The notes below the pieces were generated by a model that was not told the origin of the DNA, ran no database searches, and was given only the letters and a program-made list of their open reading frames with translations. A stretch of 64,000 bases of DNA, from NCBI GenBank assembly GCA_004764695.1, contig SMSO01000032.1:5736483-5800482 (forward strand). The letters run 5' to 3'. The position numbers and the translations under genes are program-made. Positions 1-34,699 of the stretch are shown piece by piece; position 1 is the stretch's first letter, and each line of letters opens with the position of its first letter. This DNA is from Schizochytrium sp. TIO01 (taxonomy: Eukaryota; Protista; Bigyra: Labyrinthulomycetes).

Positions 1-1
1 G

Positions 2-268
2 CAATATGATTTGACTTATACAATGGTAGTGACACGCAAATGGATTTGGGAAATGAGGCTTCGATATAGACAAACACGCTATCAAAATGCACAATGCTAT
101 GTCACTGGGTGTTTGCTAAGGGAGCTCCTGAATCATCTAGATTTGGAAATTGAAAATATGGGGTTCGGACATTTTTACAAAGATAATGCTACATCTATTG
201 CTCCATTGTACGCGAAAGATCAATACTTGGACGAGCTTCGTCGCAAATTTAGTGATAACCTAACCTAA
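2..268 (+). CDS. Hypothetical protein, 5'-truncated by the window edge
   Basis: Frame is open from position 2 to the stop at 268; no recognisable motif. Confidence 0.5.
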   Translation, partial: QYDLTYTMVVTRKWIWEMRLRYRQTRYQNAQCYVTGCLLRELLNHLDLEIENMGFGHFYKDNATSIAPLYAKDQYLDELRRKFSDNLT

Positions 269-380
269 CCTAAACGCTAACACCAACGCCTACGCCTACG
301 CCGATGCGTTTCGTACGCAATTGAAGGTTCAACATGAAGGCTTCAAGTGCTTTATATTATATGCAAACCCCTAACCCTCA

Positions 381-1040
381 ATGAAACTTGTTGTGTTGAG
401 TGATACTCATAATCGTCACCACGAGATCCATTCCCTACCAAGAGGCGACGTCATTATCCATTGTGGTGACGCTTGTAATGTTGGTACGTGGGAGGAACTC
501 GACTCTTTTCTTTTTTGGTTCACCAATTTACCACATAAATACAAAATTTTTGTTCCTGGAAACCACGAATTTCATCATAATGACTACCATACTTGCATTG
601 CTTTCCTTTGTGCGTATAGAGAAAAAGCTCCAAACTTTCACGTATTAATGGACTCAGGAGTTGAGATTAATGGGCTATACTTTTATGGCTCACCATATTG
701 CAATGGTGCACACCACGTCATGAAGAAATGGTCTTTCTATGTTGAAAGCGATAATGTAAGAGAAGCTTTGTGGGCTAAAATCCCACACGGCACAAATGTA
801 ATTATCACCCATATTCCACCATTTGATATGCTCGATAATGGTCTTGGGTGCAAACAACTCATGAAAAGAATACTCCAAATAAAACCTATAATACATTGCT
901 TTGGTCACATTCACGAAAAGAATGGTCAAGTTCTTCTTAACCATAGTCAAGATAATACGACTACCACCTTCATTAATGCCTCATGCTACCTAGATGATAG
1001 ATGTAAATTGATAGATCCCAAGATTATCTTTATTTATTAG
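381..1040 (+). CDS. Calcineurin-like metallophosphoesterase (MPPED-like)
   Basis: Motifs SDTH, HCGD, GNHE, THIPP and FGHIHE in canonical order. Confidence 0.9.
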   Translation: MKLVVLSDTHNRHHEIHSLPRGDVIIHCGDACNVGTWEELDSFLFWFTNLPHKYKIFVPGNHEFHHNDYHTCIAFLCAYREKAPNFHVLMDSGVEINGLYFYGSPYCNGAHHVMKKWSFYVESDNVREALWAKIPHGTNVIITHIPPFDMLDNGLGCKQLMKRILQIKPIIHCFGHIHEKNGQVLLNHSQDNTTTTFINASCYLDDRCKLIDPKIIFIY

Positions 1041-1134
1041 AGATTCGCTTTATAAGGCGCTTGCTTTGACGACGAGCATACATGAGATTTTTCTCCGATT
1101 GAGCAGCTTCACATATAGGATCATGCACTCATTC

Positions 1135-1452
1135 TTACGTCTTTGCGAATTTATCCGATAACAATTTAAATAGACCGAGTACTGCTAAACAGAATGGAAT
1201 AAATTCCACCAATTCAGAAAGTTTTTCTTTGGCATCTAATACTTTACAATTCAAATCCACATTACTAAGGACTTGAGAATAATCATCATCCTGAAACACG
1301 ATAGGTACTATGGACATATCTCCTCCAATGTCTGCAACAAACCCAGATGGATACTCTACACGCATGACTCCATCTGTAATATCACTTACAATGATATCTT
1401 CGTTCTTGAAGGTGTGCTTGAGAATCAGATACAATGCTCGCTCGAGACTCAT
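1135..1452 (-). CDS. Truncated paralog of 1664-2251 (possible pseudogene)
   Basis: MSLERALYLILK...EDIIVSDITDGVMRVEYPSGFVADIGGD aligns with the next ORF. An internal deletion separates it from the remnant 3' end at ~1031-1114. First ATG is at 1452. Confidence 0.6.
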   Translation of the reverse strand: MSLERALYLILKHTFKNEDIIVSDITDGVMRVEYPSGFVADIGGDMSIVPIVFQDDDYSQVLSNVDLNCKVLDAKEKLSELVEFIPFCLAVLGLFKLLSDKFAKT

Positions 1453-1485
1453 GATGCTCAACAGAAGTGAGTTAAGGTTTTGCTT

Positions 1486-1636
1486 TTACAAGCTCTGGAG
1501 TAATATATACTTATTATATATAATAATCCAAGAGGCCATTCGTAAAGTTCTTTCTAAACAATCAATTGGAGTCCCGACGCACCGAACTTTATCCCAAAGA
1601 CTAGGACCATGGTAGGGTAATTAGCAAGGATCAATG
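1486..1636 (-). pseudogene. Duplicated 3' fragment of the 2286-3659 gene
   Basis: Nucleotide match to ~2286-2438 with substitutions and indels; no start codon. Confidence 0.7.
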
Positions 1637-1663
1637 CTAAATTGATAGATCCCAAGATTATCT

Positions 1664-2251
1664 TTATTTATTAGAGATTCGCTTTATAAGGCGCTTGTTT
1701 TGACGACGAGCATACCTGAGATTTTTCTCCGATTGAGCAGCTTCACATCGAAGACCATGCAAAGTCACAGCCAGCGTAGTCGAAATATCAGGGTGGAGCT
1801 CAAACATACGCTCGACCGCTTGACACGTTTCAGAAATCATTTTTCCACGATCATCCACGCTATGTTGCTTAGGTGCTTTCAAATCTTTAATCAAGCGCCT
1901 GTTCTTACGTCTTACCACACGAAGTTGTTCCCTGGTATTCTTAATAGAATAATTGTAGGTGTTGATTGGTTGCACGAAAGTTTCTAAAAAGAGTGGAAAT
2001 ATTTCCAGGAGTCCAGATAGTTTATCTTTCGCATCTGTTACCTTACGAATCAGATCCTCATTGCTAAGAACTTGAGGATACTCGTCAACACGGAACACGA
2101 TAGGTACTATTAACTTATCTCCTCCAATTTCTGCAACAAACCCAGAGGGATACTTTACACGTAGAACTCCCTCTGTAATATCACTTACAATGATATCTTC
2201 ATTCTCGAATATGGACTTGAGAATCAAGCACAATGCTTGCTTTAGACTCAT
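1664..2251 (-). CDS. Hypothetical protein with basic coiled-coil C-terminus
   Basis: Long ORF, first ATG at 2251; internal repeat (VRRKNRRLIK / ARRQNKRLIK); the recurrent upstream motif precedes it. Confidence 0.75.
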   Translation of the reverse strand: MSLKQALCLILKSIFENEDIIVSDITEGVLRVKYPSGFVAEIGGDKLIVPIVFRVDEYPQVLSNEDLIRKVTDAKDKLSGLLEIFPLFLETFVQPINTYNYSIKNTREQLRVVRRKNRRLIKDLKAPKQHSVDDRGKMISETCQAVERMFELHPDISTTLAVTLHGLRCEAAQSEKNLRYARRQNKRLIKRISNK

Positions 2252-2285
2252 TATGATCAACCGAGTCGAGTTAAGGTTTTGCTTT

Positions 2286-3659
2286 CTACAAACTCTGGAG
2301 TATTCTATAATTATTATTTGAAACCATCCAAGAGGCCATTCGTCGAGTTCTTTCTAAGCAATCAATTGGAGTCCCGAAGCACTGAACTTTATCCCAGAGA
2401 CTAGGGTCCATGGTAGGGTAATTAGCCACGATCCATGCAAAACTGGCACAGTGTGTAACACAATAGCCAGCGTCTAATTTGGAAGACCGACCAACACCAA
2501 GCCACACCTCAATACGCGCTTGAATTCCATCTGATAGTTGGTAATTCCGCGGAGAGTTATAAGAATAGTCTCTACCCAAATGGTGATGAACAAAATCTTC
2601 CAAATATCTATCCAAACTTCTTTGATCGTACTCCAAATTTAAAGTGCCATGAGGCTCATAGCGATACACTCTTCGCCGCGTGTTGTCTACAATAATAAGA
2701 TTTGCGTGACCACCCTCCTCCCAGGCCATGTCAACAATGTTGATCCACCCAATGACAATAGCCGAACGCTGTGTAGATACAGATCCATTTTCCAATTGTT
2801 CTAGAATACCAGGACTTTGACTAGTAATTTCGGTATTCTCTACTTCTACTACCCGATTCATGAAGCTATCAACACGCAACTTCCTTGGAGTACCATTGAT
2901 AGATGCAACTTTGGGATAATACTTACGATTAATAATACTTCCAATCTTACCTAGAACAACTGGAGAACCTCTAGCATGTTGATACCCCTTATCCGAAAAG
3001 CCAAAGCGGTCAAAAATTTTCAAGTTCCCACGTCGGTTTAACTTCACAGAATTCCCTATATCACTTTCATAGAGACGACATTGTGGTAAGGTCCATTTCT
3101 TAAGAGTTGTAGTGTAAGCCGTATAGATAATTGGCTTTATGAGTTTCCGGAAATGTTCCCCGAACAAGACCTGTTCTTCATACTGGTGAAAAAGCTCGAG
3201 CTTTTTCCTAACACTTTTTGTTTTTCTAATCGATAGAACAACTTGCTCCACCGGGCTATTCTTCAAAATTTTCCCGAAACGTTCTCCGAATGTAAGCATC
3301 AATGTAGCCTGTAAAATCATCGACTTGGTATGAAAGTACTGCTTCAGCAATTCCCTAGGAACATTCCGGTCTCCATGTCGAAACTGAGTAGATAGATGCT
3401 TATACATTTCCAACTCAATCTCATAAATTGCCTCATGCATCTTATTATAAAGACGGTAGCGACGTCTCATTGTGGTAAACACCATGACTGCATTCATACT
3501 TAAGTTATCTACCTTATCCAATCCATGTTTAAGGTGAGTCCTATAAACTGAACCCAACAAACCAACAACCGAAATCATGTAGTTTTCTAATCTATCAATA
3601 TGAATATAGCGAGTGGACCTGTAAGGTGCATATTTTTGTTCTAACTCCTTGGTATTCAT
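2286..3659 (-). CDS. Putative clan CE-like cysteine protease
   Basis: GGHANLIIVD..RRVYRYEPHG ... GIQ ... AGYCVTHC gives His-Glu-Gln-Cys in adenain/Ulp1 order. Confidence 0.6.
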   Translation of the reverse strand: MNTKELEQKYAPYRSTRYIHIDRLENYMISVVGLLGSVYRTHLKHGLDKVDNLSMNAVMVFTTMRRRYRLYNKMHEAIYEIELEMYKHLSTQFRHGDRNVPRELLKQYFHTKSMILQATLMLTFGERFGKILKNSPVEQVVLSIRKTKSVRKKLELFHQYEEQVLFGEHFRKLIKPIIYTAYTTTLKKWTLPQCRLYESDIGNSVKLNRRGNLKIFDRFGFSDKGYQHARGSPVVLGKIGSIINRKYYPKVASINGTPRKLRVDSFMNRVVEVENTEITSQSPGILEQLENGSVSTQRSAIVIGWINIVDMAWEEGGHANLIIVDNTRRRVYRYEPHGTLNLEYDQRSLDRYLEDFVHHHLGRDYSYNSPRNYQLSDGIQARIEVWLGVGRSSKLDAGYCVTHCASFAWIVANYPTMDPSLWDKVQCFGTPIDCLERTRRMASWMVSNNNYRILQSL

Positions 3660-3821: not shown

Positions 3822-4102
3822 ACTTGTAGTAGTTTGAAAATCACAAGTAGCCCTGGGTCCCTACCCTCGGGTGCCGCCATTCTGAGGATTCTTTGATAGG
3901 AGGTAATATGGTGGGGGTAGAATAGACATGCGATTATCGATTTTGAAATCCCAAAAATTCAAATTCTCAACCCAAAACTCCAACTCTCCCATATTAAAGT
4001 GACTTTTTCTCCGCAGAAAATCTAGATAGAGACCCCTGCACCGAAAAAATAGGTATCGCTTTTATCGCTTTTATCGCTTTTATCGCTTTTATTAGGGGGG
4101 TA
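3822..4102 (+). repeat. Dispersed ~280-bp element, copy 1 (subtype A)
   Basis: ACTTGTAGTA...GGGTCCCTACCCTCGGGTGCCGCC...(TATCGCTTT)x4 TATTAGGGGGGTA; near-identical to copies 2-4. Confidence 0.95.
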
Positions 4103-4175
4103 TGATGTAAGTATAAGTTTATGGTTTAGTTTATATACCATACTAGTTGAATAGCACTCAACAAAGTGAACTTTG

Positions 4176-4682
4176 TTATTTCGTGTGATGTGTGCACACA
4201 CAATCTTCACATTTTGATTGCGAGCAAGATTTGCATTTTGTTAAATGCGAGTAGTTTTTTTCGCATTCGTTACTCGTGCAATATTTATTAGCAACAAGTC
4301 CACATGTAATACACTTTATATACCCAGTTACATCAATGCAAGATTCGCAATAATCAAATCTTACGACTTTCGAACAAGCTTTACATATATCATTGCTTTT
4401 TGTGTAAAGCTCATCACATCGATAACAATCATTCGTGCAAAGTTCATAGCATTTATCACACACTATCCAGTGCGAAAGTCCTGGGGTTGCTCTTAGTGAA
4501 CAATCCCCTTCACAACATATAAGAGCTTCACAACACACACATTCATCGGGAGATGAAGCTGCGTTCAAGTCTTGATCGCAATTTGGGCAAGGGTCGTAAT
4601 TCTCCTTTACCTCAATACACTTTTCACAAAGATATTCGTCCGGGACATTACGCACGTCGCGTTTGCAGCACGAGAGAGACAT
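4176..4682 (-). CDS. Cysteine-rich protein (many CxxC pairs)
   Basis: About 30 Cys in 168 aa; lies between repeat copies 1 and 2. Confidence 0.7.
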   Translation of the reverse strand: MSLSCCKRDVRNVPDEYLCEKCIEVKENYDPCPNCDQDLNAASSPDECVCCEALICCEGDCSLRATPGLSHWIVCDKCYELCTNDCYRCDELYTKSNDICKACSKVVRFDYCESCIDVTGYIKCITCGLVANKYCTSNECEKNYSHLTKCKSCSQSKCEDCVCTHHTK

Positions 4683-4963
4683 ATTACCTCAGTTTGGTCT
4701 TTAGATTTGTGATAGGTGAGGGACGTTCAATTGGGTTTTTGGGTTACATTAGAGTCTTTGATTTTAGTTATTCTTTGGGGAAATAAGAAACTACGAGAGT
4801 TTAGTTATTTGGAAAGATTATTTTCCTTCGAGAAGATTGTGAAATCTTCACTCATGAGAGTTTGTTGAATCGTCTCTCAGGAGAGTTTGTTGAAAAGAGC
4901 CGACACGGGTATACCAGTTGGTTCCACCGAGACACATATTAACGCGGAATGTAGGCATGTAAA

Positions 4964-5243
4964 ACTTGTAGTATTTGAAAAATCACAAGTAGCACTGGGT
5001 CCCTACCCTCGGGTGCCGCCATTCTGAGGATTCTTTGATAGGAGGTAATATGGTGGGGGTAGAATAGACATGCTATTATCGATTTTGAAATCCCAAAAAT
5101 TCAAATTCTCAACCCAAAACTCCAACTCCCTCATATTAAAGTGACTTTTCTCTGCAGAAAATCTAGATAGAGACCCATGTACTTTTCAAAAAGGTATCGC
5201 TTTTATCGCTTTTATCGCTTTTATCGCTTTTATTAGGGGGGTA
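4964..5243 (+). repeat. Dispersed ~280-bp element, copy 2 (subtype B); weaker homology extends back to ~4881
   Basis: Direct repeat of copy 1; upstream AAAAGAGCCGACACGGG..ATACCA..TGGTTCCA is shared with copies 3 and 4. Confidence 0.95.
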
Positions 5244-5411
5244 GGGAATAAGTTGCAAATATATAGTTTCACATTCCCTGTGTTCCCTCAATTAATACCT
5301 GACCCTCTTTCTTTCAAATAAAATGAATATCAATTAATAATGAAAACAATAATCATCATAGAATATAGAGTATAGAGGAGATGAAGACGAAATATTCAAA
5401 TATCTATATTG

Positions 5412-6404
5412 TTAATTAATTAAGAATTCAATTACATATTCATCATATCGCTTGAGAACCTCTGTGATATAAAAATCTATGAAAGCCTTATAAACAATAG
5501 AAGACTGATCTGAGTAGAAAGGCTCTCTCAATAATTTTATAGTGTACCCAGATTTCTCAATAGTTCTTTGATTTGTAACCCACTTTTTGTTCTCATATAA
5601 CCTAACCACTTCCCATCTCACAAGGTAGTTCGTTCCATTATTGATATAGTACTCGAGTAGTTGTTTGCATAAGCTGTCATGTGTGGAATCATCAACAAGG
5701 ATTGAGGCTGGGATTTCACAGTCAGGTAACTCTATGAATTTTTGCAACACTCTTTTCCTTAGATCTTCGGCGACCGAGTCTCTGTAGTCTGCAATATTAC
5801 AGAGTATAATTAGGCTATACAAGGCAACACCAGAAGACATAAGACTTGTCAAATATTGAATTAGCTCTGTCTTGTAAGAGTACCTGACGACTTCTCCTAA
5901 TGCCTGTACCAGTACCCAACACCGTTCAATCATGAGAGAATCCATAGATGCAACGATAAAGTTCCATACATCTTCGTCTTTTTCAGTAATGCCACCTTGA
6001 GCACCGCATCGTTCCAAAATCACTAACCAATCACAAAGATGACTATCAGTAATGAAGTTGTCTTGGTCTTTGAGAAATTCTTTTGCATCCGTGAGACCTT
6101 CAACGGTCAGCAAATATCTAACAATCTCCAGGTTCGGACACTCAAATAGTGCTCTTCGTACGGATGGAACATTAAAATTTTCTTGTGGATCAATTTTGAT
6201 AATTTCTCGGATGAACTCAAGGTCACCCTTTGGCAAAAAATCAATAAGTAAGTTACGTAAAGGTTGCGTCTTATACTCTAATCGCTTTACCTCCACAATC
6301 CGTTTACCCAATTCATTGGCATCAGACACATTGAACTTACGTCTCTCACGTGAACTCCATTCACCTGGCCACCCGTCAATAATCGAATTCATAAAATCCA
6401 CCAT
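5412..6404 (-). CDS. Hypothetical helical protein
   Basis: Long ORF; first ATG at 6404 lies immediately after the CAGCAAACCCCTA motif. Confidence 0.75.
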   Translation of the reverse strand: MVDFMNSIIDGWPGEWSSRERRKFNVSDANELGKRIVEVKRLEYKTQPLRNLLIDFLPKGDLEFIREIIKIDPQENFNVPSVRRALFECPNLEIVRYLLTVEGLTDAKEFLKDQDNFITDSHLCDWLVILERCGAQGGITEKDEDVWNFIVASMDSLMIERCWVLVQALGEVVRYSYKTELIQYLTSLMSSGVALYSLIILCNIADYRDSVAEDLRKRVLQKFIELPDCEIPASILVDDSTHDSLCKQLLEYYINNGTNYLVRWEVVRLYENKKWVTNQRTIEKSGYTIKLLREPFYSDQSSIVYKAFIDFYITEVLKRYDEYVIEFLIN

Positions 6405-6494
6405 TAGGGGTTTGCTGCTCACCTGATGCTTAGTTTATACTCAGGTCTAAACAATCGCACATATACTTTTTTGTGGTCAGCAAATCCCTAACTC
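6404..6494. promoter_or_regulatory. Divergent pair of the recurrent motif
   Basis: CAGCAAACCCCTAA on the minus strand (6404-6417) and CAGCAAATCCCTAAC on the plus strand (6478-6492), each just before a start codon. Confidence 0.6.
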
Positions 6495-6506
6495 AAGGAA
6501 TTCGAT

Positions 6507-7184
6507 ATGATTTGTATTGTAAGAGCTAGTATTCTATTAGCATTTGTGACACTCACATTCGCAAGTGAGTTTACTGATAAGATGAAGGAAACATGTCACG
6601 AATATAATTCAAACGCGACCACATGTATGACCTTTGATCACATTTGCAATTGGAATGGTGAAACATGCGAATATATTGGACAGACAACTATACCTACTAT
6701 GAGCCCGACCTTTAGCCCGTCAAAGAGACCAACAAAGAGACCAACAAAGAGGCCATCTAGCATATCACCTACCACTCTACCTACCGAAACTCCTACCACT
6801 CTACCTACCTCACTGCCTACCGAAATTCCTACCACTCTGTCCACCACTTTGCCTACCTCACTGCCTACCACTTTGCCTACCAACAATCCTATCACTCTGG
6901 CTACCGAAATTCCTACCACTATGCCTACCAATTTTACATACATCACCCCTAGTAGTTCCCCTACAAATAAACCCTCACACCCTTCAACATACTCACCATC
7001 TAGTTTGCCATCCAATTCGCCATCAATTGCCCCGAGTGAACTCGACAACGCGAGTGAAACTACATCGAGCAGTCAAGAGAGTAGATTGAAGAATTTTAAA
7101 ATTGTTATGGGGGTCTTCGTTGGATTGTGCGGCCTTCTTATCATAGTACTAGGAATTATCCTAGTTAACAAGAATAGCACCTAG
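6507..7184 (+). CDS. Type I membrane protein with mucin-like PT repeats
   Basis: Signal peptide, small Cys-rich domain, PTTL/PTSL/PTEI repeats, C-terminal transmembrane helix. Confidence 0.8.
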   Translation: MICIVRASILLAFVTLTFASEFTDKMKETCHEYNSNATTCMTFDHICNWNGETCEYIGQTTIPTMSPTFSPSKRPTKRPTKRPSSISPTTLPTETPTTLPTSLPTEIPTTLSTTLPTSLPTTLPTNNPITLATEIPTTMPTNFTYITPSSSPTNKPSHPSTYSPSSLPSNSPSIAPSELDNASETTSSSQESRLKNFKIVMGVFVGLCGLLIIVLGIILVNKNST

Positions 7185-8558
7185 CTTAGCGCGTTTATTC
7201 GAAAGAAACTTTTCATTTGCTGCCGTGACCCTTGAATAGAAGTCCTTGACTGACTTGGAAGTTGTAACCTTCTTCGGGTGAAAATTTATCACTTGCATGT
7301 TTGCAAGCGTACGGCCACGCGATAAAGCAACGTATACCATGGCATCACAAAAGGATCCACGCAAATCGACACTGAGAAGGTCGATTGTCATACCCTGACT
7401 TTTGTGCACAGTAAGCGACCATGCATAGCGAAGCGGAACTTGTGCACGTTTAGCAACTGTCACATCATGTTCGCCCTTGATTTCCTCGACGATCACCGGA
7501 ATTGAATCAACGGTTCCATCTAGAAAGCGCACCTTGACACTCCCATTCTCATCAAGGCCTAGGACAACACACCGGGTTCCATTCGATCTTCCGTTAAGAA
7601 CATCTATATTCCAGTTGAGCATAACTTGGGCTCCATTGCACAACTTAATGTTCTCGGCAAGACGAAAGGAACGGCCGTGTACTTTCTTCATTTTCTCATC
7701 GAGAAACCAGTCTTCACTGGTAAATTCCTTCACAAAGTATTTATTACCTTCCGCATCAGCTTCGCAGCCTTGGTCAATGTGACCTTGCACATCCATTTCG
7801 ACCTTGTTATACTCCCGTTGGTTATCTTGCTCAACTTCAAAGACCCTGCAGAATAGCTTAGTAGGTTTGATGCCGGCATCATTCTCTAACTTATTATTTG
7901 CAAGATCCTGAATTTTGCTCACTGTTCCAGCGTTGAATTCAGCATGTCTGATCTCTTGCAGCAATCCCAAAAACGTAGGGTCTTGTTGGCGAAATACCTT
8001 GGTCAAGGTAATAGTTCTCTTGATAGTCTGCTCCCACAATGAGTCTTCAAAGAGATACCGCACAGGACCTGTCTTTGAAACAGGCGGCAACTGGAAGAAG
8101 TCTCCCACGAGGATGAGTTGAATGCCACCAAAAGGACACGGATTCCTTCTCAGCGACTTGCCTATGACGTTCAACTTTTCAAAAAAGTCTGGGTGGACCA
8201 TCGATACTTCATCAATGATAAGAGCATCGGTTTCTTTCCAACGGTCCTTTGTATTCTTGAAGCGAAAGACTTTTCTGACAAGCTGGTGCACACTTTCATT
8301 ACCAAGACCAACACCGGCCCAGGAATGGAGGGTGGAGCCTCCTATAGCTGCTGCGGCGATCCCAGTAGGTGCAACAATATGCACAGACTTGCCCAGAGCT
8401 TGTAGCTTGGCTCTGATCGTGTTGATAATGTAGGACTTACCCGTACCTGCTGGGCCGAGGATACAAACATTACTCCCATCTAGAGCTGTATTTATGGCCA
8501 AGAGTTGTTCATCACTAAAAGCTCCGTTGTTTTCGTCTTCTTCAAAAGCACGCTTCAT
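7161..8558 (-). CDS. PIF1: PIF1-family SF1B DNA helicase
   Basis: GPAGTGKS, APTGIAA, IIDEVSM, GDFFQLPP, LTKVFRQ, HKSQGMT and YVALSR motifs. Confidence 0.95.
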   Translation of the reverse strand: MKRAFEEDENNGAFSDEQLLAINTALDGSNVCILGPAGTGKSYIINTIRAKLQALGKSVHIVAPTGIAAAAIGGSTLHSWAGVGLGNESVHQLVRKVFRFKNTKDRWKETDALIIDEVSMVHPDFFEKLNVIGKSLRRNPCPFGGIQLILVGDFFQLPPVSKTGPVRYLFEDSLWEQTIKRTITLTKVFRQQDPTFLGLLQEIRHAEFNAGTVSKIQDLANNKLENDAGIKPTKLFCRVFEVEQDNQREYNKVEMDVQGHIDQGCEADAEGNKYFVKEFTSEDWFLDEKMKKVHGRSFRLAENIKLCNGAQVMLNWNIDVLNGRSNGTRCVVLGLDENGSVKVRFLDGTVDSIPVIVEEIKGEHDVTVAKRAQVPLRYAWSLTVHKSQGMTIDLLSVDLRGSFCDAMVYVALSRGRTLANMQVINFHPKKVTTSKSVKDFYSRVTAANEKFLSNKRAKLGAILVN

Positions 8559-8568
8559 GGTTGCTAAG

Positions 8569-8582
8569 TTTTGGGTTTGCTG
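8569..8582 (-). promoter_or_regulatory. Recurrent upstream motif (example before PIF1): CAGCAAACCCAAAA
   Basis: Related motif found upstream of about 18 ORFs in sense orientation. Confidence 0.6.
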
Positions 8583-8766
8583 CCGTCAGGCAATTCGAGT
8601 CTACCGTCCGCCGCCCATCTTGTAGAGCTTCTAGAAGAGTTTCGCGGAAGCAATCGGCTTTAATTACCCGCTTAGTTCCTCAAGAACTTTCAAAGAAAGA
8701 CATGCATGCTTCTAGAAGAATTTTTAAAGTGGCGTAAATAATTAAAGTGGTGTAATGAGTCTTTGA

Positions 8767-9306
8767 TTATAATCTAATTCTAGAGGTGACTTCATATGCA
8801 CGATCCAAAATATCCTCGTCATAATCAGAGTCGTCTACTATAATAGCAAGCCTACTATTGTCAATAATAAGACCGTAACGAATGATGTATAAAGCGTTCG
8901 TCACACGACGACAATTATATAGCTCAACGTCATTGAAAACGATCATACTATCTAAGTGGATTTCCTCTGGGTTGTTATTGGCATATTCGGAGGACATTTG
9001 GGCCATAGAGTTGAGTAGTTCTTTGTTTTCTTCAATCAAAACGCCTTGTGCGAGTTCACGTTCCTGCTCGCTAAAGGTTTCCAGGTACTTTATACATTTG
9101 TTTACAACTTTGCGGGAATCACATGAGAAGCATTCAATACCAATCTCTTTGAATTGATTAACGAGTGTTAATGGTATTAACCCACTTGTTTCACCATAGA
9201 AATCAGCAAATGCTTGACATGCTCTAGCCAGTTGTAGGTGCCTCTTCATATTCGACACATCCCAATTAGGGATTTGCTGGAATAGTTTCGTAGGTCTTGC
9301 TACCAT
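8767..9306 (-). CDS. Hypothetical protein
   Basis: ORF of ~180 aa, first ATG at 9306. Confidence 0.6.
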   Translation of the reverse strand: MVARPTKLFQQIPNWDVSNMKRHLQLARACQAFADFYGETSGLIPLTLVNQFKEIGIECFSCDSRKVVNKCIKYLETFSEQERELAQGVLIEENKELLNSMAQMSSEYANNNPEEIHLDSMIVFNDVELYNCRRVTNALYIIRYGLIIDNSRLAIIVDDSDYDEDILDRAYEVTSRIRL

Positions 9307-9763
9307 CAACTTCCCAACCACTTTTGGGCATTAAAGCAAAATAAATAGGAGGGAAAATTATCATCACAATTCCACTTAGGCAATATTCAGGGGTAGTTCC
9401 ATGAAGGATAGGATTCTGAATGACTAAAATGACTAAGTATATAGGATAGAATAATAGAGCCAGAATAAAACTAAGGATACGATAGTTTTTACCACTAGTA
9501 TCACGTAGAGGGAATATGCAAGACGCAATCATCATTAAGAGTTCCAAAGTCAGTAACATAAATGTAAGAGCCAGCATGATAATTTCATTATCCTTATTAG
9601 ATGTGTTTGCGCAAACCATGACCGTATTGCAATACTCATCAACGTCACAATCGTCGTCACCCGAGCAAGCCGTAATAACAAATGCCCTAGAGTAAGTAAT
9701 AGTTGCAAGTAGCACTATCATTGATAGTTGATGAAATCTCATAGTATTATAGTAGGAGTTCAT
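9266..9763 (-). CDS. Membrane protein with small Cys-rich ectodomain
   Basis: Signal peptide, CSGDDDCDVDEYC..C, then about 3 hydrophobic helices. Confidence 0.7.
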   Translation of the reverse strand: MNSYYNTMRFHQLSMIVLLATITYSRAFVITACSGDDDCDVDEYCNTVMVCANTSNKDNEIIMLALTFMLLTLELLMMIASCIFPLRDTSGKNYRILSFILALLFYPIYLVILVIQNPILHGTTPEYCLSGIVMIIFPPIYFALMPKSGWEVDGSKTYETIPANP

Positions 9764-9859
9764 ACATTAATTGAAGTTTTTACATAAGAAAACAAAAATA
9801 CAAGAACACTACCTCTAAAATGTCAAGCAAATCCCAAACGCTGGGAAGGGCATGCAAGT

Positions 9860-11806
9860 TTAGAAGTGGATTGGTGCGTAGACATGTTGCGGGGGGGTAG
9901 TTTTTGCTTTCGTGAAGCATTTATAGCAAAGAACTATCATGATAATGATCAGTATAAATATTACTGAACCGGTAATACCGATAATTGTGGGACTCTTCAT
10001 CCATTCAAAGGACGAAGTACTACTGGTCGGTTGTAGTGTTGGTCGTTGAGTTAATGTATAGAATGTGGGTGAGAAAGATGGCCTGGGTGTTGATGGTGTA
10101 GGGTTCTTTGTTATGAATGTAGGAGATGAGGTACTACCAATAGTAGGATTAGAGGTGGAACTTATGAATGGACTTTGCGTAGGATTAGTAGTAGTGGGAC
10201 CTGAAGATGGTGTTGAAATAGTTGGTCTTGGTGTGTCACTGCCACCATCAGTATTTTCAATACAAGTCCCTGATTCACAATGCCCCAGAGTACTTTCATC
10301 AGTATAACATTTTGAACCATCGGATACATCAGTAACATAGGTAACTTCACCATTGTACCTGATCCATAGACTAGACGTGCAGTACCCAGACGAGTCAATG
10401 CATTGCTGTCTACAACCATTTGTTCCACACAACTCAAGATTGGCAAAGTAATCTTGGCATCTATTTGTACATGTTCCCATCGCGCAATATCCATAGCCGT
10501 TTTCACATGATGTTTCTACATCCTGAAGGACACCTTCTTGAGTGCAACAGGTTTTATCTGAAAGGGTCCCACCCTCTGGTCCATTCTTGAGTGATACCAA
10601 AAACTCATTGCTACATTCCATTGATGGGTCAGAGAGTTTGCAGTTGACGCAAGTGTAAGGAGTAGTTCCACATGTCAGACTACCGTCAGGGCATTCACAT
10701 TCTTCTGTTCCAGTCACAAAAATATCTCCACACGTATCATCAGCGTCGCCTCCATAGATGGAGCTGTACGGACACGAGTCATCCTCCTCCAGATTATTTA
10801 TTTTATTACAAAAGTACTCCAGAGAAGCATTTGTATAGCCGTATTCACCTGTATCAAGAAGTTTTCCATCACCATAGTCCATAATACCACCATACTGACC
10901 TTGATCACTCGACGAAGAAAACGGGTGGACACATCCAAAAGCGTGCCCCATTTCATGAATAAATGTGCGAAATGTATACTGGTAGTTGGTGACTTTAGAA
11001 GTACCCGTGATGTATCCATAAGTTGACTGAGAGCACATTGTGTTCACCCACGCTAGCCCCGCATAGCTTCCCCATGTAGAGCATGCTGAGATTCTATGCC
11101 AGTGAGCAACATACCTTCTATCATTGTTTGCAAATGAAGTTGCTTCACTCAATGCTGCATTAATATTCGCAAGGGCTGTTCCTGAACTTGAACATGTCAT
11201 TGACTCGCCATATTGTGTATCTGCTATCCTGAATGCAACCTTTGCAAATTTTTTCAAAATGACGTTGCCTGTCACTACCATATGTTCTATATATCGTTCG
11301 ATGAGTGTGCTATTACTTCCGAATCCTTCGTATGCTGTGGGGTCGTATACTATACCAATTTCAAAGACAGTAAAGTGATTTGGAAATTGACATGACATAG
11401 CTTCCAACTGTCGTGTGTAATCATGTGTAAAGTCAAATGTAATGGGATCTGCGGTCTGTTCCTCGGAAAGTTCCCGGTGAATCGCTTTGTTTCGCCGACC
11501 GTTCAAAGTGAGTACTGAGTTGTTGTTTAGAATGAACATTCCTGAGTATTCATCATCGATATCATCCAGGAATGTAATTGCACCCTGGAAGAAACTATCT
11601 GATTTACTTTCATAAGTAGACTGGGCACTATGTCTATTTGTATATAGCCGTGTGGCAAGGTAGAGATGATAGTCGTAAGGCTGGTGGTCAACCACAAACG
11701 TCACTTGAACTTGGTTGGGTGATGGCTTCCAAACAACAAGTTTCTCGAAGGCTTCCGTTGCGAGGGTGAGGCTCAACAAGTATACTAAGAGAACGCTGAA
11801 CCACAT
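9860..11806 (-). CDS. Membrane-anchored M12B (reprolysin/ADAM-like) zinc metalloprotease
   Basis: Signal peptide, HEMGHAFGCVH zinc motif, GIMDY Met-turn, disintegrin-like CGD..EECEC region, PT-rich stalk, transmembrane helix. Confidence 0.9.
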   Translation of the reverse strand: MWFSVLLVYLLSLTLATEAFEKLVVWKPSPNQVQVTFVVDHQPYDYHLYLATRLYTNRHSAQSTYESKSDSFFQGAITFLDDIDDEYSGMFILNNNSVLTLNGRRNKAIHRELSEEQTADPITFDFTHDYTRQLEAMSCQFPNHFTVFEIGIVYDPTAYEGFGSNSTLIERYIEHMVVTGNVILKKFAKVAFRIADTQYGESMTCSSSGTALANINAALSEATSFANNDRRYVAHWHRISACSTWGSYAGLAWVNTMCSQSTYGYITGTSKVTNYQYTFRTFIHEMGHAFGCVHPFSSSSDQGQYGGIMDYGDGKLLDTGEYGYTNASLEYFCNKINNLEEDDSCPYSSIYGGDADDTCGDIFVTGTEECECPDGSLTCGTTPYTCVNCKLSDPSMECSNEFLVSLKNGPEGGTLSDKTCCTQEGVLQDVETSCENGYGYCAMGTCTNRCQDYFANLELCGTNGCRQQCIDSSGYCTSSLWIRYNGEVTYVTDVSDGSKCYTDESTLGHCESGTCIENTDGGSDTPRPTISTPSSGPTTTNPTQSPFISSTSNPTIGSTSSPTFITKNPTPSTPRPSFSPTFYTLTQRPTLQPTSSTSSFEWMKSPTIIGITGSVIFILIIIMIVLCYKCFTKAKTTPPQHVYAPIHF

Positions 11807-11898
11807 AACCAATCATAGTAAATAAACTCTTGAAATAAGTACTTATAAAGTAGTAGCTATGATGAATAATTAATCACAGCAAAACCCAAACCATTGAA

Positions 11899-12108
11899 AT
11901 GATGAACTATCAACGTCCAGGGATTAGTAGTTGTGAGAGTCATACGTATGTAGAAACCGAACGCTTGCGTCAGATCGAAGATCAAAGGTTATCGACATAT
12001 GTGCGTTCGTCACTTGCTAAGCAAAAGGTAGGGCAGGCAACTTCTGAACATTCTGGATACATAGGTATCAATACTAGCTTATTAAATCATATCCCAGTAT
12101 TCCCTTAG
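11899..12108 (+). CDS. Small hypothetical protein
   Basis: 69-aa ORF directly preceded by the CAGCAAAACCCAAAC motif. Confidence 0.5.
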   Translation: MMNYQRPGISSCESHTYVETERLRQIEDQRLSTYVRSSLAKQKVGQATSEHSGYIGINTSLLNHIPVFP

Positions 12109-12185
12109 TAATGATTATATGATAGTTTACCATTGATATATTTGTACGGGGTCCTTTTTAATTGGTTTCTTCACATTTTATCGTC

Positions 12186-12560
12186 ATGGTTGCCAGACCA
12201 ATAAAACGTGAGTTTACCAGTGATGTTGGTGAAACGCATCTTGTGCCGTTGACAAAAATGGGTTATATATTTCGATCATTGCTTTATCAATTTTATGAGT
12301 TGCAGACTAAAATGGTCGATATGGAGAGTAGCATTTTATGTTTTTCTGTCCGGGGAGAAATGATACAACTTCGAATGAATGCATCACACGGTATTGGGGG
12401 TTCATTGGGCATCCTTGAACGTGAGAGATATTTTCGAAGTTGGTGCGAAGCTTGTAATGACCTATTGTTGGTTGGAAGTGATATGAGAAAAGTAATAAAG
12501 TACTTATCACCAGAGGATGTTTCAAGTCTTGCGATGGAAGATGCAATAGCCTTTATGTAA
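12186..12560 (+). CDS. Hypothetical protein
   Basis: ORF with first ATG at 12186. Confidence 0.55.
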   Translation: MVARPIKREFTSDVGETHLVPLTKMGYIFRSLLYQFYELQTKMVDMESSILCFSVRGEMIQLRMNASHGIGGSLGILERERYFRSWCEACNDLLLVGSDMRKVIKYLSPEDVSSLAMEDAIAFM

Positions 12561-12613
12561 TAAAATTCAAATAAGTCATTATTTAAATAGCACATTAACC
12601 ATTAAATACAACA

Positions 12614-12892
12614 TACCCCCCTAATAAAAGCGATAAAAGCGATAAAAGCGATAAAAGCGATACCTATTTTTTTAGTGCAGGGGTCTCTATCTAGATTTTC
12701 TGCGGAGAAAAGTCACTTTAATATGGGAGAGTTGGAGTTTTGGGTTGAGAATCTGAATTTTTGGGATTTCAAAATCGATAATCGCATGTTTATTCTACCC
12801 CCACCATATTGCCTACTATCAAGGAATCCTCAAAATGGCGGCACCCCAGGGTAGGGACCCAGGGCTGTTTGTGATTTTTCAAATACTACAAG
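12614..12892 (-). repeat. Dispersed ~280-bp element, copy 3 (subtype A, inverted); weaker homology extends to ~12992
   Basis: TACCCCCCTAAT(AAAAGCGAT)x4...TACTACAAG is the reverse complement of copies 1 and 2. Confidence 0.95.
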
Positions 12893-13110
12893 ATTTAGGT
12901 GCCTGAGTTCAGAGTAAAGTAGGTGTCGACTCGGTGTAACCAGCTAGTATCACCGCATCGGCTCTTTTCACTAAACTCTCATCCAAACTCTCCGTATATT
13001 CTTCTCGGAGGAGTACGAACTTACGGTATAACAAAAACTCTCATGAATGTTCTGAACTCTAAACTCTCCAAAGTGATAATATGAGGAAATGATATTAAGT
13101 ATTTAATAGA

Positions 13111-13338
13111 TTATTTGTTTATCTTTTTCCTCTTGGCTATCTTCATGTAGTTGTCATCGGTTGACTTCACGCGGTGGTGTTTCTTTGGGTTAGCGATCAA
13201 TGATTCGAGCACTCCTTCGATATTCACTCGTTCAAAGTCAATATCACAATTGTCAGGCCTGTTGTAATGATTCCATACATCGATAGGTGTAAAACGATCA
13301 ATGAAGTAGTCAAGCTCGTCTAACCAATCCATATCCAT
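13111..13338 (-). CDS. Small hypothetical protein with basic C-terminus
   Basis: 75-aa ORF between repeat copies 3 and 4, ending KRKKINK. Confidence 0.55.
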   Translation of the reverse strand: MDMDWLDELDYFIDRFTPIDVWNHYNRPDNCDIDFERVNIEGVLESLIANPKKHHRVKSTDDNYMKIAKRKKINK

Positions 13339-13650
13339 AGTGAATAGTCAGTGGTGTTTGGTGTTTGTTTGGTGTTTGGTGCTTGTTTGGTATTGGTGTT
13401 AGACACGATTGATCGAGAAGGTTTGAAAGAATTTCTCAATGAACTTTCATTATACCACGTAAGCCACCATCGAGTGAAGTACACCATGCTATAATAGAGT
13501 TAGGGTTTTGTTCAATGGAATTATGAAACCATATTTCAAGTTATACTAATTCAATAAGTCACTTTCAAGTATTGCCGAATGATTTTGACTACGGAAAACC
13601 ACTAGTATATACTATAGGTACATCAATAGGCCAATAATTAACGTATGTAA

Positions 13651-13930
13651 TACCCCCCTAATAAAAGTGATAAAAGCGATAAAAGCGATAAAAGCGATAC
13701 CTTTTTGAAAAGTACATGGGCCTCTATCTAGATTTTCTGCAGAGAAAAGTCACTTTACTATGGGAGAGTTGGAGTTTTGGGTTGAGAATTTGAATTTTTG
13801 GGATTTCAAAATCGATAATCGCATGTCTATTCTACCCCCACGATATTACCTCCTATCAAAGAATCCTCAGAATGGCGGCACCCGAGGGTAGGGACCCAGA
13901 GCTACTTGTGATTTTTCGATTACTACAAGT
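13651..13930 (-). repeat. Dispersed ~280-bp element, copy 4 (subtype B, inverted); weaker homology extends to ~14070
   Basis: Reverse-complement match; shares CCCATGTACTTTTCAAAAAGG with copy 2. Confidence 0.95.
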
Positions 13931-14079
13931 TTTATGTGCTCGCACTACATGACTGACTACCCGATGGAACCAGATGGTATCCCCGTGTCGGCTCTTTTGG
14001 GGAACATTCTATCCATGAGAATAGAACGGTAACTCTCCTTAGATAAGCAAGTAAACCTCTAACTCAGTGGAGAGAATCA

Positions 14080-14430
14080 ATGGATAAATTTCAAGAGCAC
14101 ATCACGTCACGGGTGTTTGAGAAAAAGGACGGAATGTTCGAGAAACCTCTTGCTTTTTTAGAGAAACTTAACGCTAGGCTAGATAAACAAGACGCTATAT
14201 TAAAGGAACATGACGCTATATTAAAGGAACATGACGCTAAATTAAAGGAACATGACGCTAAATTAGATGATTTGCGGCGTGATATGGATGCCTTGAAGAA
14301 TCCGCGATTCGACTGTTGCATTAAGGATTGTGAGTCATGTCAAGCTGGAAAAGGCGCTATTGAAACATGCAAATATAAGGACTATCCTATCAAGGTCATG
14401 ATGGCACGATTTGAGGATGCCTTGCGTTAA
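14080..14430 (+). CDS. Coiled-coil protein with heptad repeats and a Cys cluster
   Basis: 21-bp repeats encode KQDAIL/KEHDAIL/KEHDAKL; C-terminal CC..DCESC...C. Confidence 0.7.
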   Translation: MDKFQEHITSRVFEKKDGMFEKPLAFLEKLNARLDKQDAILKEHDAILKEHDAKLKEHDAKLDDLRRDMDALKNPRFDCCIKDCESCQAGKGAIETCKYKDYPIKVMMARFEDALR

Positions 14431-14470
14431 CATTAGTCGTATAGTTAGAGTATCCCACTATCCCTTGCCT

Positions 14471-14663
14471 CGGTGAAACATAACAATATCACCACATCGG
14501 CTCTTTTTGGGGAACATTCAATCTATGAGTATAGAACGCTAACTCTCCTAATGAATCTTCCCAAAGAAGAGCAAATAAATCAAACTCTCCGAGTAGAATG
14601 TTCTTGATAAATTTCATCTCGCTTGAGAATAATAGCAAGTAAACCCTTAACTCGGCGAAGAGA
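14471..14663 (-). repeat. Partial fifth copy: only the distal extension of the element
   Basis: TCGGCTCTTTTTGGGGAACATTC..TATGAG.ATAGAACG.TAACTCTCC and AGCAAGTAAACC.TTAACTC repeat ~13962-14070. Confidence 0.8.
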
Positions 14664-14862: not shown

Positions 14863-15474
14863 ATGGGTAATCAGGTACCACCACTAAGGCAGCAGATAGC
14901 CTTCGAAAGGAGGATGCTTCTTCGAAACGAGAGGGCGCTAATGCGGGAGATGCTGGAGATAGAACGAAACCTTAATCGTATAGGTAACGATATTCGACAA
15001 GCGGTTGCAAAAAATGAAGACATGGCCCTCTTACGCATGATGGGGCGTGACTATGCACACACGCAAGCTTGCATTAGGAATCTGAAGATGATGTGCTCGC
15101 ACCTCAAACGAACTCGTATGAAACTTGATATGGCCAAGACTATAGATAATTTATACAGCTCAGTGATGGGCGTTGTTGCAGTAATGAGTCGAATGAATGA
15201 AACAATGAATCTTCCAGTTATGAATCGAATTATCAATGAATATGAGGCACAGACGCATATGATGAACTTGACTATGGATGCTACTGAAGAAATGATGACG
15301 GTAGGAGAGAGCAGTATGATTGATGAAGTTGGCGATGAAGTGGTAAATAAAATATTAGATGAATTTGGGGTAAAAGCTGCAGATAGTATTGCAGAAGCTC
15401 CCAGGGACCCCATCATAAGGCTAGACCAAGGAGTGTCCAATTTAGAACAGCGTCTCTATAACCTTAGAACCTAG
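14863..15474 (+). CDS. ESCRT-III protein, Vps2/CHMP2-like
   Basis: Basic helical N-terminal half and acidic C-terminal half; MGVVAVMSRMNETMNLP..RIINEYE, DEVVNKILDEFG, and MIM1-like C-terminus LEQRLYNLR. Confidence 0.85.
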   Translation: MGNQVPPLRQQIAFERRMLLRNERALMREMLEIERNLNRIGNDIRQAVAKNEDMALLRMMGRDYAHTQACIRNLKMMCSHLKRTRMKLDMAKTIDNLYSSVMGVVAVMSRMNETMNLPVMNRIINEYEAQTHMMNLTMDATEEMMTVGESSMIDEVGDEVVNKILDEFGVKAADSIAEAPRDPIIRLDQGVSNLEQRLYNLRT

Positions 15475-32532: not shown

Positions 32533-33393
32533 CTAGCGATTAATTAAATTGTATGGCGGCGAAGGAGGGCCCTGTGGTTGCTGCACCTGCGCAGTTGAGA
32601 AGTAAGAGTAGCGCTGATAGTTATTACTATTATTGTTATAGGGTTGGAACTGTTGCGGATAAGAAGAAGTAGGAACAGGAGGTGGGGGAGCCCGTGCAGA
32701 CGATGAAGGAACGGATCGATAAGAGTAGGAGTACCTATAATCCCCGTTCAAATAATCATGATAGAGAACACCAGCTGCCACACAAATGGAGAGGAAAATA
32801 GAAATGCTGGTTAGAGTGGGACCAAGTGGATGTACTGTAGCATCTACAGCCGAGACCGAATCTAAATGGTCCATGATGCGTGTGTAAAAGAATACAATTG
32901 CAACAACATCGACTGTCATTTGAACTACACTAAGAAGTTTCGAGCAAATTAGAGACCATGGATAAATACTGCGATCAATAGCATACATGATTTGGAAGAT
33001 AGTAGATGTGAAAGCCATAACAGATGCAATGATAAGCATCGCATACATAACACGGTAGTCAAACTCGGCTTTTGTATCGTTCAGAGCATTTGTGTCCTTG
33101 ATGATTCTTCCAATATCATAAATCGCATCATGTTCATCGAGTGTATTTGAACCTGTATCTACGGTGATCCACGGTAGAAGAAGTGCTCCTAGTTGAACAT
33201 GAGAGGATATCACAGATGCAGCGAGTACGTGCGTAAGGGAAAATCGCATGAATATCCGGGTATAATCAGATATATGAAATTTAACATATGCTTGGTTCCA
33301 GTCAAGCATCTTCATTGTTCCATTAAGTTTAAGAAAGCAAACAAAAATGGCGGAGGAACTATTTGAAAATACCGAGCACGATGGCTTTTCCAT
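32533..33393 (-). CDS. Four-transmembrane (claudin/amastin-like) protein with Pro/Tyr-rich tail
   Basis: ALLLPWITV at the end of the first helix; four hydrophobic helices; true start probably an internal ATG. Confidence 0.65.
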   Translation of the reverse strand: MEKPSCSVFSNSSSAIFVCFLKLNGTMKMLDWNQAYVKFHISDYTRIFMRFSLTHVLAASVISSHVQLGALLLPWITVDTGSNTLDEHDAIYDIGRIIKDTNALNDTKAEFDYRVMYAMLIIASVMAFTSTIFQIMYAIDRSIYPWSLICSKLLSVVQMTVDVVAIVFFYTRIMDHLDSVSAVDATVHPLGPTLTSISIFLSICVAAGVLYHDYLNGDYRYSYSYRSVPSSSARAPPPPVPTSSYPQQFQPYNNNSNNYQRYSYFSTAQVQQPQGPPSPPYNLINR

Positions 33394-34525
33394 TTACAAC
33401 AGCCACTTCTACCTAAATGTAGTTCGAATCAAACATTTTATGTACGCCCTGGAGAGTTCGGTCACTGAACAAACCTTGGAAGCCGATTTATTATTCTGGA
33501 TTGAGGAAGATGATGCGCGTTCACACCTTGCTGCTGAAATCATTAAGTTTGCCCGATTTTTCGAGAAGAATGATTTATTTTACCTGAAAGTTTCTTCCGA
33601 TGGAACAATTGAGGAACAGGTTTCTGTAAGTAGCGCTGAATGTAAACGGTATAGAGAAGCCGACTCGTTCCCCTCTATCGAGTATCCACCCAAGGCCTAT
33701 GCACATGCTCTTGCTTTATTAGAACTAAACGAACATGATCAACAAGAACTTGAAGAAGAAGAAGAAGACCTATCTCTCTTCCAAAAGTCCACAGACAAAG
33801 TAAATGATGCTATAATGAGTTGGTCATTAAATAGACGCACTAAATTACAGTGCACGAACTTCGAAGAGACACTCAATGCTCTAAATGAGATCAAGTCTAT
33901 CACTACTGGGGTTGACCATAAGTTTGATACCCTACCACCCCCTCTTGTTTTAGAACTTGGAAAGAATCTCTCGGATAATCTCAGTCGCGCCGAAAAAAAT
34001 ACTCTGTATTCCAAAGCTGCACCGTTACACAAATACTGTATAGTGGTTATATCAATAGACCAAGGACCAGGTAAAATAGGGTACATAAATATGAATCCAG
34101 AGTGTCAATCCGACAAAGTGCCTTCGCTTGGCTGTAGGATTAATATAGACCCTATCGCTATAAGATTTATGAATAGTCTCATGATGGTTCTTCGCCAGCC
34201 CCGGATATTGACGGTAGTTCTCTTGGGATTCATCCGCGAAAGCAAGCTTCCGGAACCTTTCGAGAAGTTTAAAAACGTTCACCAGGAATTCCATCATCTT
34301 ACTAATATTCTATACACTCATATGTTTAAAAAGCCAGTCATCGTGGTGGGAAGATTCGGTGCTATCATGGATCAGCTCCTTTCTTCGGGAGCATTTGTTG
34401 TATATCACCCGAAAGATGGCTATTCAATCGCCGAAACAATAATAGAAAAATCAAACAATGATTCCGATGACGACGCCATTGATAAGTTGAGTTCAGAATT
34501 ATCCACGTTAGCAATACCCAAATGA
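33347..34525 (+). CDS. Hypothetical protein
   Basis: 392-aa ORF. Confidence 0.8.
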   Translation: MAEELFENTEHDGFSIYNSHFYLNVVRIKHFMYALESSVTEQTLEADLLFWIEEDDARSHLAAEIIKFARFFEKNDLFYLKVSSDGTIEEQVSVSSAECKRYREADSFPSIEYPPKAYAHALALLELNEHDQQELEEEEEDLSLFQKSTDKVNDAIMSWSLNRRTKLQCTNFEETLNALNEIKSITTGVDHKFDTLPPPLVLELGKNLSDNLSRAEKNTLYSKAAPLHKYCIVVISIDQGPGKIGYINMNPECQSDKVPSLGCRINIDPIAIRFMNSLMMVLRQPRILTVVLLGFIRESKLPEPFEKFKNVHQEFHHLTNILYTHMFKKPVIVVGRFGAIMDQLLSSGAFVVYHPKDGYSIAETIIEKSNNDSDDDAIDKLSSELSTLAIPK

Positions 34526-34540
34526 AACGAAACTCAAATC

Positions 34541-34693: not shown

Positions 34694-34699
34694 AATTAA

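What the first reader, a model, noticed from the sequence alone, without database searches (positions are those of the whole stretch)
3822..13930. Four copies of a ~280-bp non-coding element, two direct and two inverted, bracketing a 7.4-kb segment
Seen: copies at 3822-4102 (+), 4964-5243 (+), 12614-12892 (-) and 13651-13930 (-) are near-identical, non-coding and clustered within 10 kb. They contain short palindromes (ACTTGT..ACAAGT, CGATTATCG, GATTTTGAAATC, TTTTCT....AGAAAA, TCTAGA). One end is sharp (ATTAGGGGGGTA) and the other decays gradually. Inference: a cis-acting module such as a replication origin (baculovirus hr-like), a terminase cleavage/packaging signal (herpes a-sequence-like) or a recombination site. 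No transposase or recombinase is visible in the window.
Basis: partly seen in the sequence, partly recalled or inferred. Interest (0 to 1): 0.85.

Follow-up and report, generated by a model that had tools for sequence, protein, structure and literature searches.

The report
Dispersed origin-like repeat in a mirusvirus
A herpes-related virus of marine protists carries four near-identical copies of a 280-base non-coding element in this stretch, and an estimated nine in all; it is likely a docking site for a DNA-binding protein that starts or maintains viral DNA replication, which no experiment has yet tested.

Summary
The four copies are real (91-96% identical, one 1-bp indel). The window is a strain variant of the thraustochytrid mirusvirus AurliV-2. 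Contigs of public runs reproduce the junctions. Depth and loose ends point to about nine copies, and one joint suggests a second facing pair elsewhere. A further copy lies inside the published virus at 266 kb, called there as an ORF. Diverged copies change only the two spacer bases. No empty site was listed, whereas a probable IS607/Fanzor2 element sits at different GG sites nearby in different runs. There are no terminal inverted repeats, no Crypton or IS607 ends, no herpes pac motifs and no RNA-folding signal. Synonymous G/C strand bias flips at the cluster (odds ratio 1.34, gene-level p=0.0025 within 25 kb; not significant over the whole window). Best reading: a baculovirus-hr-like replication or maintenance element (0.45). 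Rivals are promoter/enhancer cassette, old mobile element, packaging site and inversion site. I found no description of it in the papers searched.

The parts
3822..4102 (+). Copy A of the 280-bp element
4964..5243 (+). Copy B
12614..12892 (-). Copy C (most private changes in the 5' two thirds)
13651..13930 (-). Copy D
4054..4102 (+). 3' core of A: 4.3 x 9-bp repeat, then TTAG-G6-TA; candidate protein-binding array (same in B 5195-5243, C 12614-12662, D 13651-13699)
   Evidence: 1 variable column in the last 51 among A-D
4881..4963 (+). Upstream module of B (about 40-bp conserved box plus AAACTCTC motifs), between B and the start of ORF 4682-4176; promoter-like, inferred
12893..12980 (-). Upstream module of C
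13931..14039 (-). Upstream module of D, before ORF 14080-14430
14469..14549 (-). Orphan copy of the upstream module without the 280-bp core
5244..12613 (.). 7.4-kb unique segment between the facing copies B and C: PIF1 helicase (7161-8558), M12B metalloprotease (9860-11812) and ORFans; holds the cumulative G-C minimum (9321)
13007..13174 (+). GG dinucleotides (13007, 13025, 13173) at which foreign ends, inferred to be an IS607/Fanzor2 element, join the sequence in other runs; not part of the repeat, used as a mobility control

Best explanation
The 280-bp element is a dispersed, fixed-length, non-coding repeat of an AurliV-2-type mirusvirus that likely works like a baculovirus homologous region: a DNA-binding protein would dock on the four 9-bp repeats at the G6 end and start viral DNA replication there or maintain the nuclear viral genome, possibly also enhancing nearby promoters. 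Shown: four copies here, viral context, fixed geometry, a conserved repeat core with variable spacer bases, a further copy at 266 kb of the published virus, no listed empty site, and a local flip of synonymous G/C bias centred on the cluster. Inferred: about nine copies in all; spread by duplication with flanks plus gene conversion rather than precise transposition; protein binding; origin activity. The binding protein is unknown.
For: (1) Strand bias. The cumulative G-C minimum is at 9321 and the array centre is 8876. At four-fold sites with the cut at 8900, predicted leading strands are G-richer: OR 1.34 within 25 kb (Fisher p=0.008; gene-level permutation p=0.0025, 34 genes) and OR 1.42 within 10 kb (permutation p=0.014, 22 genes). 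Of 20 sliding cuts the OR peaks at 6-9 kb and reverses at 39-54 kb. (2) Iteron-like core. The last 51 columns have 1 variable column among A-D; 32 of 281 columns vary overall. The published 266-kb copy and a truncated 92-bp homologue in run X15 keep the 9-bp period, the 7-bp core and G6-TA, and change the two spacer bases. (3) Dispersal in both orientations in intergenic DNA. Summed depth at 4975 in X1 is 3970 against 378-438 for unique contigs, and five extra 3' flanks are listed. (4) Stability. X1 shows 8 of 8 junctions, X3 7, X2 and X7 5 each in a cut table, X11 and X15 4 of the 4 laid. None of the 7+2 joints listed skips a copy. (5) The core is better kept (91-96%) than the shared upstream module (79-89% over 37-51 nt, with indels). 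A=C and B=D share a 3' haplotype (3 and 1 differences against 8-11), which fits conversion among copies. (6) Precedent: baculovirus hrs are dispersed repeats that act as origins and enhancers (PMC4535591 abstract; PMC6669502 passages).
Against: The skew test is not significant over the whole window (OR 1.10, permutation p=0.13) or right of D alone (p=0.13). The left side has only 9 genes, and without the low-complexity gene 6507-7184 the left-side p is 0.10. I ran the test after seeing the raw skew and tried three distances. The 3' flanks are AT-rich but within the intergenic range (3-33% of intergenic 60-mers are less stable), so no special unwinding element is shown. There is no long hr-type palindrome. 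'Origin' has 0 hits in the published gene tables of either virus, so no origin-binding protein is annotated. No homologue was found outside this virus lineage, so deep conservation is untested. Clustering of variable columns is borderline (p=0.03; 0.06 with the haplotype collapsed). X1 may be the window's own source and is not independent.
Confidence: 0.45

Rival explanations
1. A transcriptional cassette only: an enhancer/promoter, perhaps with a poly(A) signal at its other end, duplicated in front of small accessory genes.
For: The ACTTGT end faces a gene start in A (163 bp), B (282 bp) and D (150 bp). It also does so in the published 266-kb copy, about 28 bp from ORF469 if that copy is full length. 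Read in that direction the element opens with AATAAA, 54-169 nt after a stop codon in A, B and C (sequence).
Against: C faces no long ORF. Published read counts of the downstream genes are low or mixed: 27/31 for a merged model, no model, 15/5, 191/256. Only 19 of 60 genes have AATAAA within 200 nt of the stop. A promoter does not need 280 bp at over 90% identity with fixed length, nor does it explain the strand-bias flip.
Confidence: 0.2
2. An old non-autonomous mobile element without inverted ends, moved by a tyrosine recombinase (Crypton-like) or by the IS607 serine transposase, and now fixed.
For: Both ends are sharp. TA follows G6 in every 3' junction listed, and TA precedes the 5' end in most copies. 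IS607 ends carry short direct repeats and end in GG (PMC6188088 passages). The published relative has an IS607/Fanzor2 element between C and D and an unannotated ORF16 with a box-I-like motif, seen by eye.
Against: No empty site was listed in six runs, while the inferred IS607 ends sit at different GG sites in different runs. The inferred IS607 right end has no match in the window at 3 mismatches. The element lacks GG at its 5' end in B, C and D, and has a fixed TA after the G run. There is no 5-6-bp terminal direct repeat as in CryptonS. Several copies share diverged flanks, which fits duplication of larger units. Copy number is low.
Confidence: 0.15
3. A terminase cleavage/packaging signal like the herpesvirus a-sequence.
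For: The virus has a herpes-type terminase. One end is base-precise, with a T-rich stretch before a G run. Herpes pac sites are repeated internally and at the termini (PMC13595911 passages).
Against: No CGCGGCG within 1 mismatch, no G/T/G pac1-like motif and no G-quadruplex pattern on either strand of any copy. About nine copies, some 1 kb apart and one 215 kb away, are hard to fit with unit-length cleavage. The known copies lie 13-35 kb inside the ends of the published ORF list.
Confidence: 0.1
4. A recombination site: facing pairs invert the enclosed segment (herpes-like isomers, or 2-micron-like flip amplification), and direct pairs shuffle small genes.
For: A contig bounded by two facing G6 ends, other than B-C, appears in 3 of 4 runs (joint 4103>12613). 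The A=C / B=D haplotype pattern is what one crossover between B and C would leave.
Against: The segment has the same orientation in the window and in the published assembly. Gene conversion explains the haplotypes equally well. No recombinase was found in the window. Contigs break at the repeats, so flipping could not be tested.
Confidence: 0.1

Closest known systems
Baculovirus homologous regions (hrs) and non-hr origins (PMC4535591 abstract; PMC6669502 passages)
   Same: Several dispersed, intergenic, similar copies in a large dsDNA virus with a nuclear stage; internal repeats; candidate origin and enhancer.
   Different: hrs are arrays of 24-30-bp imperfect palindromes bound by IE-1. This is one 280-bp non-repetitive unit with a direct 9-bp array and a G6 end, in a different realm, with no known binding protein and no functional test.
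Gammaherpesvirus latent origins and tethering arrays (EBV oriP, KSHV terminal repeat); recalled, except the KSHV repeat size and number
   Same: Direct-repeat protein-binding arrays in a herpes-related virus that can persist in the nucleus.
   Different: Those are one locus or terminal arrays. Here about nine separate copies lie in both orientations; no EBNA1/LANA-like protein was looked for or identified.
Herpesvirus a-sequence with pac1/pac2 (PMC13595911 passages)
   Same: Direct and inverted copies around a unique segment; a precise end with T-rich and G-rich stretches.
   Different: pac1, pac2 and G4 patterns are absent; the copies are dispersed and not at known genome ends.
IS607 ends (PMC6188088 passages) and CryptonS elements (PMC3212892 passages)
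   Same: No terminal inverted repeats; short direct repeats near one end; a G run at one end.
   Different: No GG at both ends, no 5-6-bp terminal direct repeat, no empty sites listed, no match to the local IS607 end.

Membership tests
Mirusviricota (AurliV-2 lineage), for the window | Herpes-type terminase and HK97-type morphogenesis genes; synteny with a described mirusvirus | tested here: met
   Terminase hits; best homologue 58% in Hondaea; weak HK97 protease hit E=0.064; gene order and near-identical proteins match AurliV-2 ORFs from 35.2 to 53.6 kb. The major capsid protein was not identified in the window.
Baculovirus hr-like origin/enhancer | Multiple dispersed intergenic homologous copies | tested here: met
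   Four here, one at 266 kb of the published virus, about nine estimated
Baculovirus hr-like origin/enhancer | Repeated 24-30-bp imperfect palindromes | tested here: not met
   Longest perfect arms are 6 bp; the repeats are direct 9-mers
Baculovirus hr-like origin/enhancer | Origin activity | tested here: inconclusive
   Only indirect: local strand-bias flip, not significant over the whole window
Baculovirus hr-like origin/enhancer | Binding of a viral initiator/transactivator; enhancer activity | not testable with these tools
   No origin-binding protein annotated in the published tables
Herpesvirus a-sequence | pac1 (T-rich between G-rich) and pac2 (CGCGGCG next to T-rich) | tested here: not met
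   definitions
Herpesvirus a-sequence | Located at packaged genome termini | not testable with these tools
   Only assembled contigs were available
MITE (TIR type) | Terminal inverted repeats | tested here: not met
   7-9 of 25 terminal bases match
MITE (TIR type) | Target-site duplication shown by empty sites; high copy number | tested here: inconclusive
   TA at both ends in most copies, but no empty site listed; about nine copies
IS607 non-autonomous derivative | GG at both ends and ends shared with the autonomous element | tested here: not met
   the IS607 ends are inferred from 30-base loose ends
CryptonS non-autonomous element | 5-6-bp terminal direct repeats, mostly TATGG | tested here: not met
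   Only TA is shared; TATGG occurs at the left of A alone
Structured non-coding RNA gene | Stable fold or known family | tested here: not met
   z -0.65 and -0.22; 2 weak Rfam hits, neither inside a copy; no tRNA

The most novel reading that the evidence does not exclude
These repeats are the replication and maintenance origins of a persistent herpes-related mirusvirus, and the facing pairs are also substrates for a viral tyrosine recombinase (candidate: unannotated ORF16 at the left end of integrated AurliV-2). One element would then combine an oriP-like and an FRT-like role in switching between integrated and episomal states.
Probability: 0.1. Interest if true: 0.85.

Novelty: new variant of a known kind. 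Interest (0 to 1): 0.52.

Why it matters
I found no replication origin, packaging signal or maintenance element described for a mirusvirus in the papers searched. AurliV-2 belongs to a cultured host-virus system (PMC12606086), so a defined 280-bp candidate with a 50-bp conserved core makes the question directly testable: how does this herpesvirus relative start replication and persist? It also corrects an annotation, since published ORF128 lies over a copy of the repeat.

Tried and rejected
No whole genome was held, so the extra copies could not be mapped. Exact-pattern scans found nothing in viral contigs or metagenome contigs. A looser repeat pattern gave 40 viral loci: none matches the element body, 28 of 40 lie in open frames of 150 aa or more, and none has terminase, PIF1 or TBP hits. 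Seven of the remainder were inspected and are unrelated. A terminase-based locus scan found no relative. RNA and DNA folding were at shuffle level. No RNA holder was listed. X15 is only guessed to be RNA, so its depths are not used as evidence on expression. I first took window 1-384 for the end of published ORF16; that frame is closed. The open frame 2-268 matches a 103-aa small protein at 81%, has no Pfam, NCBIfam or PDB hit, and its ThyX lead in the Atlas is below the tool's recognition level. Motif searches in the published tables found one extra copy only; these tables show ORFs only and cut cells at 400 characters. An unwinding-element signal was not separable from ordinary intergenic AT-richness. 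Segment flipping could not be tested because contigs break at the repeats.
Full report
Observation. They differ at 10-25 of 281 columns, with a single 1-bp indel. B and C face each other across 7,370 nt. No other full copy occurs in the 64 kb. B, C and D also share a separate upstream module, found alone at 14469-14549. The element does not fold better than shuffles and matches no Rfam family or tRNA.

Context. The window encodes a herpes-type terminase, TBP, a TFIIB-like protein, Snf7 proteins and PIF1. The closest terminase is from Hondaea, at 58%. Gene order and proteins match the integrated mirusvirus AurliV-2 in Supplementary Data 2 of PMC12606086, with scattered substitutions. I read sections 6 and 9 (first part) of that paper, term passages, parts 1, 2, 3, 26, 27 and 30 of the 30 parts of that table, and term searches over 7 files; cells are cut at 400 characters. 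The published coordinates keep the gaps that hold A and B (offsets 34,837-34,843), and the inner segment has the same orientation. Whether the window's copy of the virus is integrated or episomal is not known.

Other strains. Twenty of 24 listed runs, from 11 studies, hold the stretch or part of it. I laid six of them. X1, which may be the window's source, shows all 8 junctions; X3 shows 7, and X2 and X7 show 5 each in a table cut by 306 rows. X11 and X15 show 4 of the 4 laid. None of the listed joints skips a copy. Summed depth at 4975 in X1 is 3970 against 378-438 for unique contigs. Five extra 3' flanks are listed for X1, from tables with 32 and 12 rows hidden. Both point to about nine copies; depth is only a rough guide. 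Every listed 3' flank continues G6 with TA. One joint in 3 of 4 runs indicates a second segment between two facing copies. Published ORF128 (266,248-266,508) lies over a copy in which two repeat spacers differ. X15 holds a 92-bp 3' homologue with the same kind of change. Where the remaining copies lie, virus or host, is not shown.

Mobility control. The published virus has transposase/TnpB-annotated ORFs 388-389 between C and D, a net 2.0-kb insertion absent from the window. Loose ends join the window at GG dinucleotides at 13173 (X15; X11 by its piece), 13007 (X3), 13025-38 (X11) and 2261 (X2). IS607 elements insert at GG without duplication (PMC6188088 passages; PMC10711439 passages). I infer that these are IS607/Fanzor2 ends. 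A real transposon thus appears to vary among runs in which the 280-bp copies stay put, and its right end does not match them.

Function. Terminal inverted repeats, pac1, pac2 and G4 patterns are absent (definitions), and CryptonS-type direct repeats are absent. The cumulative G-C minimum is at 9321, near the array centre of 8876. To remove gene-orientation effects I used four-fold sites in 61 ORFs. With the cut at 8900, predicted leading strands are G-richer within 10 kb (OR 1.42, permutation p=0.014) and 25 kb (OR 1.34, p=0.0025), but not over the whole window (p=0.13). The effect peaks at cuts of 6-9 kb and reverses at 39-54 kb; it is flat between B and C, significant left of B (p=0.03, 6 genes), and not significant right of D alone. 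This is modest, partly post hoc support for initiation in the cluster. The repeat core is the least variable part, and A=C / B=D share a 3' haplotype, which suggests constraint and exchange among copies. A transcriptional role remains open, because the other end faces a gene start in four of five copies with known context.

Verdict. The best reading is an hr-like docking element for replication or maintenance (0.45). It works like a baculovirus hr (PMC4535591 abstract; PMC6669502 passages) but is not a member, since it lacks the palindrome array. Rivals: promoter/enhancer cassette 0.2, old mobile element 0.15, packaging 0.1, inversion site 0.1.

Novelty. Term searches in PMC12606086, the Collier preprint 10.1101/2023.06.15.545109, preprint 10.64898/2026.07.28.741200, PMC12768974 and PMC10827195 (passages only) and listings showed no description of this repeat or of a mirusvirus origin. 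The preprints' supplements and subscription papers were not visible and could mention it. Earlier AI notes report a dispersed 204-209-bp fixed-spacing element in a soil mirusvirus; I did not check this and do not count it as support.

Noticed in passing
window 13007-13174 and 2260-2262: Inferred IS607/Fanzor2 element, absent from the window, inserted at different GG sites in different runs and in published AurliV-2 (ORFs 388-389). Window 13025-13038 equals the first 14 bases of its inferred left end, which is unexplained. It may be an active Fanzor2 element in a culturable protist.
   Followed up: partly
published AurliV-2 32,803-35,220, directly left of the gene at window 381: Unannotated 805-aa ORF16, second ORF from the left end of the integrated virus, with a tyrosine-recombinase box-I-like motif seen by eye; candidate integrase, untested. 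The window has a different small ORF (2-268) there.
   Followed up: partly
window 259-273: Three copies of CCTAA, the reverse of the host telomere unit TTAGG, between ORF 2-268 and the phosphoesterase gene; the only such array in the window.
   Followed up: no
window 1004-2445: Tandem partial gene duplications with about 800-bp period (81-95% identity); run X7 lacks 634 bp here.
   Followed up: no
window 11423-12570: Run X7 shows two joints and a more diverged contig just inside copy C, suggesting a local rearrangement.
   Followed up: no
window 12614-12705 (run X15 record 20; loose end also in X3): Truncated 92-bp homologue of the 3' core in the middle of a 4.9-kb contig of unknown location.
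   Followed up: partly
window 14863-15474, 57759-58358, 47786-48601: Two Snf7/ESCRT-III genes by Pfam and a third similar-looking coiled-coil ORF without a Snf7 hit.
   Followed up: no
window 50491, 51349, 54713, 13500, 59171: Five AAACCCTAA telo-box-like motifs, possibly promoter elements.
   Followed up: no
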